The notes under the pieces are model-generated. The model was not told the origin of the DNA and did no database searches. It saw only the letters and a list, made by a program, of their open reading frames with translations. From the NCBI GenBank assembly GCA_021325135.1, contig JAJPHT010000016.1:1-64000 (forward strand): a stretch of 64,000 nt of DNA, written 5' to 3'. A program made the position numbers and the translations under genes. This document shows positions 9,140-16,284 of this stretch, one piece after another; the first letter of the stretch is position 1; each line of letters starts with the position of its first letter. Source of the stretch: Pseudomonadota bacterium. Lineage in GTDB: Archaea; Thermoplasmatota; SW-10-69-26; JACQPN01; JAJPHT01.

Positions 9140-10242
9140 GGCCGGCGCGCATCTTCGCCGACGTGAAGATGAACATCATCCTCCAATCGCGCTTCCGCGG
9201 GCGGCTCGTGTTCAGCCTGGTCCTCCCCGTGGCCCTCATGCTCCTGCTGGGGACGCTTGCGAGCCCCCCGCCCGCGCCGACCATCAAGATCGTCGACGAG
9301 GACCACTCCACGTTCGCCGCAAACCTCACGAGCAGCATCCGGAGCAAGCTTGAGGCCCCCTCGGCCGAGAACCTCACGGTGGCGATGGAAGGGGGCTACG
9401 CCGGCGCGATCCTCCTCATACCGAACGGCACGGAGGCGAACGTCACCGCCGGCCAGCCCACCAACGTGACGCTGATCCACGTCAAGGAGAATGCGATCGC
9501 GATCGTCCTCGCGGAGAACTTCTTCGTGCAGGTCGTCGCCGACGAGGAGGCCGCCAACTCTCTCCACCAGCAGATCCCCGTGCGCGTGGACGCCATTCGC
9601 CTTGGGGCTGAAGATCAGACCATCGAGAGCTACCGCGCCTTCGTCTTCGCGGGGATGCTGGGGCTGAACGTGCTCGGCCTTTCGTTCATGGGAACCGTGA
9701 ACTCGATCGGCGCGGCCCGCCGCGCAGGCGTGCTGAAGAAGCTTGCGACGACGCCCATGTCCAAGGCCGAGTGGCTCGTCGCGAAGCTCATCGTGCAATT
9801 CCTCCTCGTCGCCGCGGGGACCGTCGCCCTCCTGGTGACCGCCTACTTCGCCTTCCCCGAACTCTTCCCATCGGGGCTCGAACCCCTGAGCATGCTCGAC
9901 CTCGGCATCGTGCTCACCCTGGGGACCCTGGCCTTCTCCGCCCTTGGGCTTCTCGTGGCGAGTCTCGTCCGCGACCCGGACACGATGAACCTCGTCGCGG
10001 GATCGGTATATGCTCCGATGATGCTCCTCAGCGGGACCTTCGTTCCGACGACGTCGCTTCCTGTGTGGCTCCGGACCATCGCCCGGGGGCTTCCGCTGAC
10101 GTATTTCACGGACGCTTCTCGCATCGCCCTCTCCGCCGCCAACCCAGCGTCGATCCCGTTGGATCTGGGGGTGCTCGCTGCCACGGTCGCCGTCGGCGTC
10201 GCCGTCGGCTCGAAGTTCTTCCAATGGACCCAGGAAGCCTGA
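9136..10242 (+). CDS. ABC-2 exporter permease with large extracytoplasmic loop
   Basis: GTG start overlaps the ATPase stop; one TM, loop, then several TMs; GVLKKLATTP, LLSGTFVP, LPLTYF motifs. Confidence 0.9.
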   Translation: MRPARIFADVKMNIILQSRFRGRLVFSLVLPVALMLLLGTLASPPPAPTIKIVDEDHSTFAANLTSSIRSKLEAPSAENLTVAMEGGYAGAILLIPNGTEANVTAGQPTNVTLIHVKENAIAIVLAENFFVQVVADEEAANSLHQQIPVRVDAIRLGAEDQTIESYRAFVFAGMLGLNVLGLSFMGTVNSIGAARRAGVLKKLATTPMSKAEWLVAKLIVQFLLVAAGTVALLVTAYFAFPELFPSGLEPLSMLDLGIVLTLGTLAFSALGLLVASLVRDPDTMNLVAGSVYAPMMLLSGTFVPTTSLPVWLRTIARGLPLTYFTDASRIALSAANPASIPLDLGVLAATVAVGVAVGSKFFQWTQEA

Positions 10243-10379
10243 GGGCCCACCCGAGGCGATCTCTCTCCCTTGCGCAGGAACGCGACCGATAGCGGCGGGG
10301 AAAACGCGATTCAGACAACACACATACCCTACCCAGGATGGTTTGAGACTGCGGCAAGCGCCGCAATGGTGATTCAAAG

Positions 10380-10484
10380 ATGCAGATCGAAGACCTGACG
10401 ACGACGAGCGAGGCCGGAGCCCTTGATGGCGAGAAGAGCTGCTGCCACGGCTGGTGCTGGGGCTGGTGCCACAACGCGGTGTAA
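10380..10484 (+). CDS. Putative RiPP precursor peptide, 34 aa (MQIEDLTTTSEAGALDGEKSCCHGWCWGWCHNAV)
   Basis: Not in the ORF track. GGTGA RBS 7 nt upstream of ATG; acidic leader plus Cys/Trp/His-rich C-terminal core; followed by a strong terminator; inside the YcaO/SagB cluster. Confidence 0.88.
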   Translation: MQIEDLTTTSEAGALDGEKSCCHGWCWGWCHNAV

Positions 10485-10513
10485 GGGCTGCTGCTTAACC
10501 ACCCGCCGCGTAA

Positions 10514-10560
10514 GCCGCGGCCTCCACGCTAGCTTGAGTGGAGGCTGCGGCATTTTTTTT
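10514..10560 (+). terminator. Hairpin plus T8 terminator after the precursor gene
   Basis: GCCGCGGCCTCCAC / GTGGAGGCTGCGGC 14-bp stem (one G-U pair) then ATTTTTTTT. Confidence 0.85.
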
Positions 10561-10722
10561 CGGCTAGCCTCGGTCAGCGGTGCTGCGCGCTGCGGCGCCA
10601 TCATCGCAGGTTTCGGGGTTCCTCGACGAGGTGTTTGTTCTCCTCCCGGGCAGCCGCGCGTCGGGCGATGTCCCGGTGCCCAAACTTTGATTCCTCACGT
10701 TGGGCATGTCGGGGAGAGACCT

Positions 10723-11634
10723 TTGACTGCGGTCATCGAAGTCGACCACCTGCGCAAGTCGTACGGTGAAAGGGTCGCGGTGCGGGACGTGAGCTTCGCC
10801 GTCGACCGCGGCGAAATTTTCGGGATCCTTGGACCGAACGGCGCGGGGAAGACCTCCACCGTCGAATGCTTGCAGGGTCTCCGCCGCCGCACGGGCGGCA
10901 ACGTCCGGGTTCTTGGGCTCGATCCCGACACGCATGGGAGCCAGCTGCGCGCGCGGATCGGCTCCCAGCTGCAGTCCAGCGCGCTTCCGGCGCGCATCCG
11001 TGTCGAGGAGGCCATGCGGCTCTTCGCCGACCTCGCGCCCTCCGCGGAATCTCCCGACGTCCTTCTCCAGGAGTGGGACCTCAACGGAGTCCGAAGGCAA
11101 GCCTACCACTCGCTTTCCGGGGGAGAGCGTCAGCGGCTCCTCATCGCGCTCGCCCTTGTCAACAGGCCGGAAATCGTGTTCCTCGACGAGGTCACGACGG
11201 GACTGGATCCCGCCGCGCGGCGAAGCGCGTGGAGCATCATCGAGCGCGTGCGGGACCGTGGCACGACCGTCGTGCTCGTCACGCATTACATGGAGGAGGC
11301 GAGGCGGCTCTGCGACCGGGTCGCCATCGTCAACGACGGGCAGGTGGTGGCGATCGATACGCCCAGTGGGATCATCGCGGGATCTCGGCGTCGGGCCGTC
11401 GTTTCCTTCACCTGCCCGTATTCGACGGACCTTTCGTGGCTCACGCAAGTCCCCCATGTCGCCGGGATCGTCCGCGACGGCGACTCGGTCCGCGTCGAAG
11501 GGACGGGCCCGGTCGCCCAGCACGTCGCCAGCGCTCTTCTCTCCCGCGGCATCGAAGTCCCCGACTTCAGCAGCGAGAAGGGCGAACTCGAAGACGCGTA
11601 CCTGTCCATCGTCAAGCAAGGTGCGATCCCATGA
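10723..11634 (+). CDS. ABC-2 exporter ATP-binding protein (second system)
   Basis: TTG start after GGGGAG; GPNGAGKT, LSGGE, FLDEVT, VTHYM. Confidence 0.93.
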   Translation: MTAVIEVDHLRKSYGERVAVRDVSFAVDRGEIFGILGPNGAGKTSTVECLQGLRRRTGGNVRVLGLDPDTHGSQLRARIGSQLQSSALPARIRVEEAMRLFADLAPSAESPDVLLQEWDLNGVRRQAYHSLSGGERQRLLIALALVNRPEIVFLDEVTTGLDPAARRSAWSIIERVRDRGTTVVLVTHYMEEARRLCDRVAIVNDGQVVAIDTPSGIIAGSRRRAVVSFTCPYSTDLSWLTQVPHVAGIVRDGDSVRVEGTGPVAQHVASALLSRGIEVPDFSSEKGELEDAYLSIVKQGAIP

Positions 11635-12374
11635 GCGCGCGCGGATTCGGGACCTTCTCCCTCATTGAATTCAGGCTGCTCCTCCGCGAGCCCACCGTGG
11701 CCTTCTTCACGGTCGCGCTCCCCATCCTGCTTTTCGTCGTCTTCAGCGAAATCTTTGGCAACGCTCCCAATGCGGACACGCCCGGCGCCGGCCAGATCGA
11801 CGCGCACATGGGCGCCTACCTCGCGCTCATGGTCACGAGCATCGGGCTCGTCGCCGTTCCTGCCCGCCTCGCGGGCTACCGGGAAGCGGGCGTCCTCCGA
11901 CGCTTCCGCGCCGCCAACGTCTCTCGCGGCGCGATCCTGGCGTCCCAGCTCCTCTCGACGGCCGTCCTCGCGACGCTCTCCGCCGTGCTCATGGTCGCGA
12001 TTGCATGGATCCTGTTCCGTCCCGCGGCACCCGACAGCCCCCTCCTCGTCGCGGCGGGTCTCGTCTTCGGCACGCTTGTCGCCTGGGCCTTCGGCTGCCT
12101 GCTCGGGGCGATCATGCCGGGCGCGAGAAGCGCGCAGACGCTTGGGCTGGGCATCTACTTCGTGACGCTGCTCCTCGGGGGAGCCGGCCCGCCACGATCC
12201 ATCCTGCCCGCCTTCCTGCGCAGCGCCAGCGACGTCCTTCCCACGACGCACGTCGTGCCCATCATCCAAAGCGCATGGCTGGGCCTGGCCGGGCAGCCCA
12301 TCGAGTGGCTCATCCTTGCCGCGTTCTTGGCGGGCTCCGCAGCGCTTGCATTCGTCTTCTTCCGATGGGAATGA
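11631..12374 (+). CDS. ABC-2 exporter permease (second system, DrrB-like)
   Basis: ATGA overlap; about 6 TM; YREAGVLRRF, LPTTH, C-terminal FFRWE. Confidence 0.92.
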   Translation: MSARGFGTFSLIEFRLLLREPTVAFFTVALPILLFVVFSEIFGNAPNADTPGAGQIDAHMGAYLALMVTSIGLVAVPARLAGYREAGVLRRFRAANVSRGAILASQLLSTAVLATLSAVLMVAIAWILFRPAAPDSPLLVAAGLVFGTLVAWAFGCLLGAIMPGARSAQTLGLGIYFVTLLLGGAGPPRSILPAFLRSASDVLPTTHVVPIIQSAWLGLAGQPIEWLILAAFLAGSAALAFVFFRWE

Positions 12375-12650: not shown

Positions 12651-12731
12651 GGGGGTGCTGTCCCGTTTGGGGTATTGCGCGAAATTCTCGCCGGGCGAAA
12701 ATGTCTGATACCCCCTATCCGGGACAGCACC
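12651..12731. repeat. ~81-bp MITE-like element, copy 2
   Basis: Inverted copy of 675-756; terminal inverted repeats GGTGCTGTCCCG / CGGGACAGCACC. Confidence 0.9.
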
Positions 12732-16230: not shown

Positions 16231-16284
16231 AGGCAGTGCGGCTTCAGGCGGACGCAACTTGAACGCCGCACTGTCCTTTTTTTT
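16231..16284 (+). terminator. Hairpin plus T8 terminator
   Basis: CAGTGCGGC...GCCGCACTG stem followed by a T8 tract. Confidence 0.7.

What the first reader, a model, noticed from the sequence alone, without database searches (positions are those of the whole stretch)
10368..10560. Unannotated 34-aa precursor with a Trp/Cys/His core (SCCHGWCWGWCHNAV) and its own terminator
Seen: GGTGA RBS, ATG at 10380, TAA ending 10484, then a 14-bp hairpin plus T8. The acidic leader begins MQIEDL. The core has 4 Cys, 1 Ser, 3 Trp, 2 His and a repeated GWC unit. Inference: up to 4 thiazoles (plus perhaps 1 oxazole) interleaved with indoles and imidazoles would give a flat aromatic, possibly metal-binding or nucleic-acid-binding product. 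The stable 3' hairpin could raise precursor mRNA above that of the downstream genes. The leader/core boundary is unknown.
Basis: partly seen in the sequence, partly recalled or inferred. Interest (0 to 1): 0.85.

Follow-up and report, generated by a model that had tools for sequence, protein, structure and literature searches.

The report
Archaeal azole-peptide precursor, Trp/Cys-rich core
A 34-residue unannotated gene in an uncultured Thermoplasmatota archaeon is very likely the substrate peptide of a neighbouring thiazole/oxazole-forming enzyme set. Its leader recurs in the few related clusters known, and its tryptophan/cysteine/histidine core is so far unique.

Summary
Protein P0001 has an acidic leader and a core with 4 Cys, 1 Ser, 3 Trp and 2 His.

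The ORF lies on the coding strand of a complete azole-peptide operon. That operon holds an E1-like leader-binding protein, a SagD-type YcaO, a SagB dehydrogenase and two ABC-2 transporter pairs. It sits on a lower-GC island bracketed by inverted 66-nt repeats. The host is a non-halophilic Thermoplasmatota archaeon.

The key test was whether homologous clusters carry equivalent peptides, and they do. All three clusters with about 50% identical YcaO carry small ORFs, two of them (four ORFs) showing the same N-terminal motif M-x-[I/V]-E-[D/N]-L; the third is cut at its contig end. In this 3.77 Mb genome the motif occurs twice in all six frames, and only once at the head of a short ORF, which is this one. 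Their cores differ: they are Asn-His-Gly-rich heptad repeats, though the three-unit layout is shared.

I read it as a real precursor of a linear azole peptide (about 0.7). Three things are untested: modification, expression and the aromatic or metal-binding idea. The YcaO clade also lacks the canonical C-terminal PxPxP motif. The scan has not found this peptide on other DNA.

The parts
10368..10372 (+). Shine-Dalgarno GGTGA, 7 nt before the start codon
   Evidence: The E1, YcaO, SagB and ABC genes of the operon carry the same GAGGTGA-type element at 4-7 nt.
10380..10484 (+). 34-codon precursor ORF (P0001), stop codon included
   Evidence: GC3 is 0.88 and preferred codons are used. It is the only copy in the genome.
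10380..10397 (+). Leader recognition motif M-Q-I-E-D-L (residues 1-6)
   Evidence: The motif is conserved in four peptides of two related clusters, with synonymous codon changes at Ile and Leu. It occurs twice in the six-frame genome.
10437..10481 (+). Predicted core, residues 20-34 (4 Cys, 1 Ser, 3 Trp, 2 His), built of three degenerate units
   Evidence: The boundary is inferred; an alternative core starts at residue 16 (10425).
10514..10551 (+). 14-bp GC-rich hairpin with a 10-nt loop
10553..10560 (+). T8 run, the likely archaeal termination signal
   Evidence: only 18 such runs in 3.77 Mb, both strands.
4641..5810 (+). E1/ThiF-like C protein with an N-terminal leader-binding (RRE-like) region
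   Evidence: PF00899. TIGR03882 scores 54.7 against a cut-off of 36.9. A PDB profile search hits LynD, TruD, the MusD RRE region and PaaA.
5815..7242 (+). YcaO cyclodehydratase (D protein)
   Evidence: PF02624, 1.7e-59. TIGR03604 scores 220.3 against a cut-off of 219.25. The C-terminus lacks the canonical PxPxP motif.
7253..8152 (+). SagB-type FMN dehydrogenase (B protein)
   Evidence: PF00881. TIGR03605 scores 130.2 against a cut-off of 78.4.
8153..10242 (+). First ABC-2 transporter pair (ATPase 8153-9139, permease 9136-10242)
   Evidence: Gene calls of L146.
10723..12374 (+). Second ABC-2 transporter pair (ATPase 10723-11634, permease 11631-12374). It is not present after the first pair in the L008 cluster.
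   Evidence: (37% identity to the first ATPase).
3167..4644 (+). Pair of proteasome-beta-like (Ntn) proteins, candidate leader peptidase. Subject of another finding.
   Evidence: Weak PF00227 hit. Conserved in L008, L009 and L010.
675..740 (.). Left arm of the inverted repeat that brackets the island
   Evidence: 66 nt, 95% complementary to 12666-12731. A third copy lies on contig C39.
12666..12731 (.). Right arm of the inverted repeat that brackets the island

Best explanation
The ORF at 10380-10484 is the structural (A) gene of a linear azole-containing peptide (LAP/TOMM) pathway. The pathway lies on a mobile, lower-GC island in an uncultured Thermoplasmatota archaeon.

Proposed mechanism:
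1. The peptide is translated from the distal end of the operon transcript, using its own Shine-Dalgarno sequence.
2. Its N-terminal M-Q-I-E-D-L segment binds, as an added strand, to the RRE-like N-terminal region of the E1-like C protein.
3. The YcaO, using ATP, cyclodehydrates the four Cys, and possibly Ser20, to azolines.
4. The SagB flavoprotein oxidises the azolines to thiazoles and an oxazole.
5. The leader is removed, perhaps by the conserved proteasome-like pair, after a hydrophobic residue.
6. The ABC-2 pumps export the product and protect the producer.

Shown here: the ORF, its translation signals, its coding signature, the enzyme families, and conservation of the leader in related clusters.

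Inferred: binding, heterocyclisation, the cleavage site, export, and any bioactivity.
For: Enzyme context:
- All enzyme families of an azole pathway sit on the same strand directly upstream. The YcaO matches PF02624 at 1.7e-59 and TIGR03604 above its cut-off. The SagB matches TIGR03605 at 130 bits against 78. The E1-like protein matches TIGR03882, 'TOMM precursor leader peptide-binding protein', at 54.7 against 36.9.
- The E1-like profile matches the RRE region of MusD and PaaA, and the cyclodehydratases LynD and TruD.
- YcaO ATP/Mg-type motifs are invariant in the clade.

Conserved equivalents:
- The only close YcaO relatives known (about 50% identity; L008, L009, L010) have the same gene order.
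- Each carries small ORFs upstream of the proteasome-like pair. L008 has three, and L009 has one starting M-Q-I-E-N-L after a GGAGGTGA site.
- L010 has one whose N-terminus is cut off by the contig end, so its leader is not visible; it shows the same core repeats.
- The invariant Leu uses CTG, CTC and CTT, and Ile uses ATC and ATT. Selection therefore acts on the amino acids.
- The motif is found twice in 7.5 million codon positions of this genome.

Coding signals:
- GC3 of 0.88, preferred codons, and a Shine-Dalgarno sequence like the rest of the operon.
- The three-unit core layout, one or more cyclisable residues followed by His/Trp-Gly-x, is shared with the relatives.

Complex prediction, E1-like protein with the peptide:
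- Verdict weak support, score 0.36, best of 3 controls 0.00.
- The mark was reached by 58 of 80 solved complexes and 2 of 110 mismatched pairs. At 0.60 or under it was reached by only 7 of those 80 solved complexes and by both mismatches that passed.
- The runs agree in at least 56% of contacts, and the partner's pLDDT is at least 41.
- RRE-leader complexes have been solved, so this may reflect likeness only.

Other precursors: I-E-D-L also occurs in leaders of two actinobacterial TOMM precursors listed by Cox et al. 2015 (PMC4603692, supplement).
Against: - There are no expression or mass data. The genome is a MAG.
- The Cys/Trp/His core has no second occurrence anywhere searched. The relatives' cores are Asn/His/Gly/Ser/Thr-rich with 0-2 Cys, so only the leader and the unit layout are conserved.
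- The gene sits downstream of the first ABC pair here, but upstream of the proteasome-like genes in the relatives.
- The YcaO clade ends in x-[H/Q]-P-[H/Y]-[S/T], not the P-x-P-x-P motif that next-nearest YcaOs keep. That motif is associated with azoline-forming enzymes (bioRxiv 10.1101/2025.07.11.664356).
- TIGR03604 is passed by only 1 bit.
- The E1-like protein keeps a MoeB/MccB-like G-x-G-x-x-G loop, so additional or different chemistry cannot be excluded.
- The complex score is weak.
Confidence: 0.7

Rival explanations
1. The peptide is real and is recognised by the cluster's machinery, but the chemistry is not plain azole formation. The YcaO might stop at azolines, or make thioamides, amidines or a macrocycle. 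Alternatively, the E1-like protein, which keeps a nucleotide-binding loop, might adenylate the peptide as MccB or PaaA do.
For: - The YcaO clade lacks the canonical C-terminal PxPxP motif.
- The best solved relatives of the E1-like protein are the active adenylating enzymes MoeB and MccB.
- G-x-G-x-x-G and two C-x-x-C motifs are invariant in the E1-like alignment.
- The relatives' cores have few Cys.
Against: - A SagB-type dehydrogenase, whose only known role is azoline oxidation, is conserved in all four clusters.
- No TfuA or other sulfur-delivery partner was seen among the called genes.
- The C-termini of the five peptides are not conserved, which argues against MccB-like C-terminal chemistry.
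Confidence: 0.12
2. The peptide is made but is not a YcaO substrate. It acts unmodified, or disulfide-bonded, as a small Cys/His/Trp metal-binding or antimicrobial peptide that came in with the second ABC transporter pair.
For: - Four Cys and two His in 15 residues could bind Cu or Zn, or form two disulfides.
- The gene sits beside an extra ABC-2 pair that the L008 cluster lacks.
- The core is unlike those of the relatives.
Against: - The first six residues are those of the precursors in the homologous clusters. That is hard to explain unless the same leader-binding protein reads it.
- There is no signal peptide.
- No other such peptide exists in the genome.
Confidence: 0.1
3. The ORF is not expressed. 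It is either a chance ORF in GC-rich DNA or a decayed remnant of a former precursor gene.
For: - Chance ORFs are very common here.
- Trp/Cys strings of this type arise off-frame in simple GC-rich repeats in metagenomes.
- No expression data exist.
- The peptide is displaced from the position seen in relatives.
Against: - The ORF has an intact start and stop, and a Shine-Dalgarno sequence at correct spacing.
- GC3 is 0.88 with preferred codons.
- The leader is conserved, and a rare hairpin plus T8 is placed 29-76 nt after the stop.
- The antisense and overlapping ORFs lack a coding signature and any family match.
- It is the only candidate substrate within the island.
Confidence: 0.08

Closest known systems
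Linear azole-containing peptide precursors of bacterial BCD pathways (microcin B17 McbA, plantazolicin PznA, klebsazolicin, phazolicin)
   Same: - A short peptide with an N-terminal leader and a C-terminal core rich in cyclisable residues.
- Encoded with a discrete E1-like protein, a YcaO, a SagB dehydrogenase and ABC export/immunity genes.
- Adjacent Ser-Cys-Cys could give contiguous azoles, as in plantazolicin or the fused bis-azoles of microcin B17 (from established knowledge of those families).
   Different: - No sequence similarity, and no Pfam or NCBIfam precursor family.
- The core is one-third Trp/His rather than Gly/Ser/Thr.
- The recognition motif starts at residue 2-3 of a leader of only about 15-19 aa.
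- The host is an archaeon.
- The candidate protease is a proteasome-like pair.
- The YcaO lacks PxPxP.
Precursors of the sister clusters L008, L009 and L010 (uncharacterised, found here)
   Same: - Leader M-x-[IV]-E-[DN]-L, followed by a Ser/Thr-rich linker.
- A small-small-hydrophobic triplet before the first cyclisable residue.
- A core of about three units, each with His or Trp followed by Gly.
- The same enzyme set at 39-51% identity.
   Different: - Their cores are near-perfect heptad repeats of the T-S-N-H-G-V-N type with 0-2 Cys.
- They are 36-48 aa long, lie upstream of the proteasome-like genes, and come in up to three tandem copies.
- Here there is one copy, downstream of the first ABC pair, with Cys and Trp replacing Asn, Ser, Thr and Val.
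Predicted archaeal TOMM families of Cox et al. 2015 (haloazolisin, thermoacidophisin; PMC4603692)
   Same: - Archaeal YcaO clusters with bioinformatically proposed precursors.
[quoted passage not shown]
   Different: - Haloazolisin clusters have a truncated fused cyclodehydratase and mostly Ser-rich precursors. Their YcaO is present in all haloarchaea.
- Thermoacidophisin precursors are Tyr/Gly-rich.
- None of the listed precursors contains the core strings tested.
- I could not compare the enzymes directly.
Gallolytisin-type and orphan actinobacterial TOMM precursors carrying I-E-D-L in the leader (Tetrasphaera australiensis, Streptomyces bingchenggensis; PMC4603692 supplement)
   Same: The same four-residue leader string ahead of a Cys-rich core. 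This suggests a widely used strand-forming recognition element.
   Different: - The motif is internal there, not N-terminal.
- The cores are poly-Cys or Cys/Ile/Thr, without Trp or His.
- The relationship of the enzymes was not tested.

Membership tests
LAP/TOMM (azole-forming YcaO RiPP pathway) | YcaO cyclodehydratase of the SagD type with ATP/Mg-binding motifs | tested here: met
   PF02624 at 1.7e-59. TIGR03604 scores 220.3 against a cut-off of 219.25, so it passes only marginally. The acidic E-x-x-E-R and E-x-x-E-R-D-type motifs are invariant in the clade alignment.
LAP/TOMM (azole-forming YcaO RiPP pathway) | C-terminal PxPxP motif characteristic of azoline-forming YcaOs | tested here: not met
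   The four clade members and P0012 end in x-[H/Q]-P-[H/Y]-[S/T]. Of the five next-nearest YcaOs, four end in P-H-P-F-P and one in P-H-P-F-S. The motif's association is cited from bioRxiv 10.1101/2025.07.11.664356. It is a characteristic feature, not an absolute one.
LAP/TOMM (azole-forming YcaO RiPP pathway) | E1-like partner protein with a leader-binding RRE | tested here: met
   TIGR03882 scores 54.7 against a cut-off of 36.9. Profile hits reach LynD, TruD, the MusD RRE region (query 53-107) and PaaA. The AlphaFold model of the N-terminal region is of low confidence.
LAP/TOMM (azole-forming YcaO RiPP pathway) | FMN-dependent SagB-type azoline dehydrogenase | tested here: met
   TIGR03605 scores 130.2 against a cut-off of 78.4, and PF00881 matches.
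LAP/TOMM (azole-forming YcaO RiPP pathway) | Co-located short precursor with a leader and a Cys/Ser/Thr-bearing core | tested here: met
   P0001 lies on the same strand, 137 nt after the first permease. Five of its 15 core residues are cyclisable. The leader is shared with peptides of homologous clusters.
LAP/TOMM (azole-forming YcaO RiPP pathway) | Azol(in)e heterocycles actually installed on the peptide | not testable with these tools
   This needs co-expression and mass spectrometry. Expected masses are given under next steps.
Leader peptide bound by the cluster's RRE | Physical binding of residues 1-6 to the E1-like protein | tested here: inconclusive
   Complex prediction gave weak support: 0.36 against a best control of 0.00. 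The tool's stated calibration is that passes at or under 0.60 are more often wrong than right unless the guess was likely beforehand.
Haloazolisin (Cox et al. 2015) | Truncated fused cyclodehydratase of halophilic archaea, with Ser-rich precursors | tested here: not met
   Here the C and D proteins are discrete and a B protein is present. The host proteome has a median pI of 6.5, and its TBP is nearest to those of Thermoplasmatota.
Known precursor families in Pfam and NCBIfam | Match to any curated precursor model | tested here: not met
   There are no NCBIfam hits at E <= 1 for P0001 or three relatives. In Pfam the only hit is a sub-threshold conotoxin match, 13.6 bits against a cut-off of 25.1.

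The most novel reading that the evidence does not exclude
This peptide and its sisters define an undescribed archaeal class of azole peptides. In them, three azole units alternate with His/Trp-Gly elements. The product would be an azole-imidazole/indole array that chelates a metal or stacks on nucleic acid. The YcaO lacks PxPxP, the E1-like partner still binds nucleotide, and a proteasome-like threonine peptidase pair would remove the leader. This copy would be a Cys/Trp-substituted offshoot with its own extra immunity pump.
Probability: 0.15. Interest if true: 0.75.

Novelty: new variant of a known kind. Interest (0 to 1): 0.48.

Why it matters
As far as the papers I read show, no azole-containing ribosomal peptide from any archaeon has been isolated. 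Archaeal YcaO RiPPs are still described as predicted and silent (PMC12144867; PMC9953058).

This locus offers a compact, complete and apparently intact pathway with an identified substrate. It also offers a six-residue recognition motif that mutation can test, and a natural series of very different cores read by sister enzymes. That makes it a practical entry point for expressing an archaeal azole peptide. It could also show how far a YcaO without PxPxP tolerates bulky Trp and His neighbours.

It also shows that gene callers miss the key gene of the cluster.

Tried and rejected
- The search for homologous proteins refuses queries under 40 aa, so the peptide could not be searched there.
- A single-sequence scan for the YcaO in genome contigs found nothing. 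The alignment scan recovered only the L008 contig plus distant Bdellovibrio-type YcaOs.
- A scan of JGI metagenomes with the YcaO alignment found nothing.
- A back-translated pattern for seven core residues (G-W-C-W-G-W-C) hit more than 119 JGI contigs. All were off-frame readings of simple GC-rich repeats, and none showed the leader motif in the up to 40 residues printed before the match. This gives no evidence of a second copy of this core.
- The peptide profile across 401 genomes of the phylum found only this genome and the L008 genome. All other hits had E > 0.001.
- In G006, of the same family with a 37% identical YcaO, the contigs are under 3 kb and no peptide was found. The P0012 contig is 1.9 kb. 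The P0013 cluster is a different, radical-SAM type.
- P0002 and P0162, 98% identical fragments, have no retrievable contig. Strain-level dN/dS on the peptide was therefore impossible. L146 is identical to the window.
- The 137-nt upstream spacer has no significant structure, z = +1.11. I saw no clear TATA box in it by eye.
- Rfam gave no match near the gathering scores.
- The AlphaFold2 model of the E1-like protein is too uncertain in residues 16-54 (pLDDT 31-50) to confirm the RRE fold, so no fold search was run.
- The idea that the host is a haloarchaeon, prompted by the NCBI title of L008, was rejected. The proteome is not acidic. The TBP is nearest to Thermoplasmatota. The L008 genome falls in the same phylum as this one.

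Full report
**1. The observation**

- GGTGA lies at 10368-10372, the ATG at 10380 and the TAA at 10482-10484. The product is the 34-residue protein P0001.
- Residues 1-19 carry five acidic residues and one basic residue. Residues 20-34 hold four Cys, one Ser, three Trp and two His, with a duplicated Gly-Trp-Cys unit.
- Twenty-nine bases after the stop, a 14-bp stem begins (10514-10527 paired with 10538-10551). It has one G-U pair and a 10-nt loop. One A follows, then T8 at 10553-10560.
- The tail folds at -40.4 kcal/mol, z = -3.45.
- No in-frame start codon lies upstream of the ATG.

**2. Is it more than chance?**

An ORF of 34 codons means nothing in 71% GC DNA: 183 ORFs of at least 25 aa overlap 18 kb. 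Four other things do carry weight.
- The codon-position GC is 0.53/0.56/0.88. That matches the cluster genes (GC3 0.85-0.88), and the codons chosen are the preferred ones of those genes.
- The Shine-Dalgarno sequence is of the same GAGGTGA type, at the same 4-7 nt spacing, as those before the E1-like, YcaO, SagB and ABC genes.
- Runs of eight or more T occur only 18 times on both strands of the 3.77 Mb genome. One directly behind a strong hairpin, 29 nt past a stop codon, is not accidental.
- The leader is conserved elsewhere (section 4).

An independent assembly of the same population (L146) is identical over 13,242 bases. It has no gene called in this gap, so 'unannotated' is also correct.

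**3. Context**

The peptide lies on the + strand inside an operon-like row of genes:

| Window coordinates | Gene |
|---|---|
| 2634-3170 | winged-helix regulator |
| 3167-3922, 3919-4644 | two proteasome-beta-like proteins |
| 4641-5810 | E1/ThiF-like protein (TIGR03882, 'TOMM precursor leader peptide-binding protein', above cut-off) |
| 5815-7242 | YcaO (PF02624, 1.7e-59; TIGR03604 just above cut-off) |
| 7253-8152 | SagB-type dehydrogenase (TIGR03605, well above cut-off) |
| 8153-10242 | first ABC-2 ATPase and permease |
| 10380-10484 | the peptide |
| 10723-12374 | second ABC-2 pair (ATPase 37% identical to the first) |

- A profile of the E1-like protein hits the solved cyclodehydratases LynD and TruD. 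Over its N-terminal part it hits the leader-binding region of MusD and PaaA.
- The block has lower GC (0.60-0.70) than the rest of the window (0.72-0.78).
- It is bracketed by inverted 66-nt repeats at 675-740 and 12666-12731. A third copy lies on another contig.
- The genome encodes TBP. Its TBP is 83-91% identical to proteins named Thermoplasmatota or Thermoplasmata archaeon, and its proteome is not acidic (median pI 6.5).
- The host is therefore an uncultured, non-halophilic, high-GC Thermoplasmatota archaeon.

**4. The decisive comparison**

The YcaO belongs to a very small clade.
- Among 1.84 billion representative proteins, only one cluster at about 50% identity and one at 373 bits stand out. 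Scores then fall to 235 bits.
- The three contigs that carry the ~50% relatives are L008 (an NCBI MAG of the same phylum but another class), L009 and L010. All have the same gene order: proteasome-like pair, E1-like, YcaO, SagB, ABC.

Each contig carries small ORFs just upstream of the proteasome-like genes.
- L008 has three in tandem: 6302-6436, 6558-6701 and 6914-7033.
- L009 has one, at 1844-1951, starting M-Q-I-E-N-L after a GGAGGTGA site.
- L010 has one cut off by the contig end.

All four complete ones begin x-x-[I/V]-E-[D/N]-L, as P0001 does (alignment A2).
- The invariant Leu is encoded by CTG, CTC and CTT, and the Ile by ATC and ATT. The constraint is therefore on the protein.
- In this genome the motif M-x-[IV]-E-[DN]-L occurs twice in 7.5 million six-frame codon positions. 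Only once does it head an ORF of 25-60 residues, and that ORF is this one.
- No other candidate substrate exists in the island or the genome.

**5. What is and is not conserved**

After the motif comes a Ser/Thr-rich linker and a small-small-hydrophobic triplet. The first cyclisable residue falls at positions 16-21.

The relatives' cores are near-perfect heptads of the T-S-N-H-G-V-N type. L009 has an N-W-G-N-W variant. They hold 0-2 Cys.

The core here can be read as three degenerate units of the same plan: cyclisable residue(s), then His or Trp, then Gly or Asn, then a hydrophobic residue. Cys and Trp replace Asn, Ser, Thr and Val.

So the family trait is azole-forming positions alternating with His/Trp-Gly. 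The Trp/Cys richness is peculiar to this copy.

I found that core nowhere else.
- The back-translated pattern hits only off-frame simple repeats in JGI metagenomes.
- The peptide profile finds only this genome and the L008 genome among 401 genomes of the phylum.

The cluster itself is sporadic. It is in 2 of 21 genomes searched in the host's class and 1 of 197 in the class of L008. This fits a mobile island.

**6. Mechanism**

Steps 1-3 below rest on family membership, step 4 on conservation of the gene pair, and step 5 on analogy with bacterial LAP clusters.
1. Translation from the distal end of the operon transcript, by way of the Shine-Dalgarno sequence.
2. Binding of the N-terminal motif to the RRE-like region of the E1-like protein.
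3. ATP-dependent cyclodehydration of Cys21, 22, 26 and 30, and perhaps Ser20, by the YcaO, followed by oxidation by SagB.
4. Leader removal, possibly by the proteasome-like pair after a hydrophobic residue.
5. Export and self-protection by the ABC-2 pumps.

The complex prediction for step 2 gave only weak support.
- The score was 0.36, and the best of three controls was 0.00.
- The mark was reached by 58 of 80 solved complexes and 2 of 110 mismatches. At 0.60 or under it was reached by only 7 of the 80 and by both mismatches that passed.
- The runs agree in at least 56% of contacts, and the partner's pLDDT is at least 41.
- Because RRE-leader complexes are solved, this may reflect likeness only.

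On the terminator: in an archaeon the T8 run is itself the probable termination signal. The peptide ends the enzyme operon rather than preceding it.

The second ABC pair starts 162 nt later with a weak Shine-Dalgarno sequence. An AT-richer patch lies about 30 nt upstream, so it may have its own promoter. That last point is my reading and is untested.

**7. Caveats that keep this from being a plain member**

- The YcaO clade ends in x-[H/Q]-P-[H/Y]-[S/T], whereas four of the five next-nearest YcaOs end in P-H-P-F-P and the fifth in P-H-P-F-S. That PxPxP motif is associated with azoline-forming enzymes.
- TIGR03604 is passed by one bit.
- The E1-like protein keeps the G-x-G-x-x-G loop and two C-x-x-C pairs. 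Its best solved matches are MoeB and MccB. From my own knowledge, this is unusual for LAP C proteins.
- Different or additional chemistry is therefore a live rival.
- There are no expression data.

**8. Comparison with what is known**

- The system works like a bacterial LAP pathway of the microcin B17 or plantazolicin type. The precursor matches no curated family.
- It is not a haloazolisin, which has a fused truncated cyclodehydratase and Ser-rich peptides in haloarchaea.
- Its architecture resembles the predicted thermoacidophisin clusters, but those precursors are Tyr/Gly-rich.
- The string I-E-D-L also occurs in leaders of two actinobacterial TOMM precursors in the supplement of Cox et al. 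2015. This points to a common strand-forming recognition element.
- Papers on archaeal RiPPs still treat YcaO products as uncharacterised.

**9. Verdict**

The precursor reading is supported. The product properties are untested. The terminator's role needs restating for an archaeal operon end.
- This is a new variant of a known kind. It is of moderate interest as a tractable entry into archaeal azole peptides and as a natural test of YcaO substrate tolerance.

Noticed in passing
L008:6302-7036: There are three tandem precursor genes with near-perfect 21-bp (heptad) repeats. The third has a strong GGAGGTGA site but ACG where the others have ATG. A run of N in the assembly lies just upstream. 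It could be a pseudogene, a non-canonical start or an assembly problem.
   Followed up: partly
L009:1502-2146 (minus strand): The 214-aa gene called here has no Pfam hit and overlaps the conserved precursor ORF at 1844-1954 on the other strand. It is probably a miscall that hides the precursor.
   Followed up: no
window 5815-7242 (C-terminus) and relatives P0003-P0005, P0012: The whole YcaO clade has replaced the canonical C-terminal P-x-P-x-P with x-[H/Q]-P-[H/Y]-[S/T]. The next-nearest YcaOs keep P-H-P-F-P.
   Followed up: partly
window 4641-5810: The E1-like C protein keeps an intact G-x-G-x-x-G nucleotide loop, a following Asp and two C-x-x-C pairs. Its best solved matches are MoeB and MccB. 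It may still bind ATP, unlike typical LAP C proteins.
   Followed up: no
window 675-740, 12666-12731; genome contig C39:25606-25678: A repeat element of about 70-85 nt brackets the whole RiPP island in inverted orientation (95% match). A third copy (88-92% identical) lies on another contig. It looks MITE-like.
   Followed up: partly
window 16236-16284: This is the second hairpin-plus-T8 element in the window: a 9-bp stem (16236-16244 paired with 16264-16272), 4 nt, then T8 at 16277-16284. It lies upstream of the RibD_C-like gene in the neighbouring low-GC block. Only 18 T8 runs exist in the genome, and two of them sit in this 6-kb stretch.
   Followed up: no
window 10561-10722: The spacer before the second ABC ATPase (TTG start at 10723) has an AT-richer patch (AAACTTTGATT) about 30 nt upstream of the start. 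It may be an archaeal TATA element for a near-leaderless transcript.
   Followed up: no
L008 / L011 record title: NCBI titles the L008 contig 'uncultured Halobacteriales archaeon'. Yet the genome search places it in the same phylum as this Thermoplasmatota-like genome, and in a class of 197 species, the 21 listed being mostly small (0.6-2.9 Mb). The name may be wrong.
   Followed up: partly
L008:14564-16429: In the sister cluster a 622-aa protein with no Pfam match follows the first ABC pair, where this window has the peptide and a second ABC pair.
   Followed up: no
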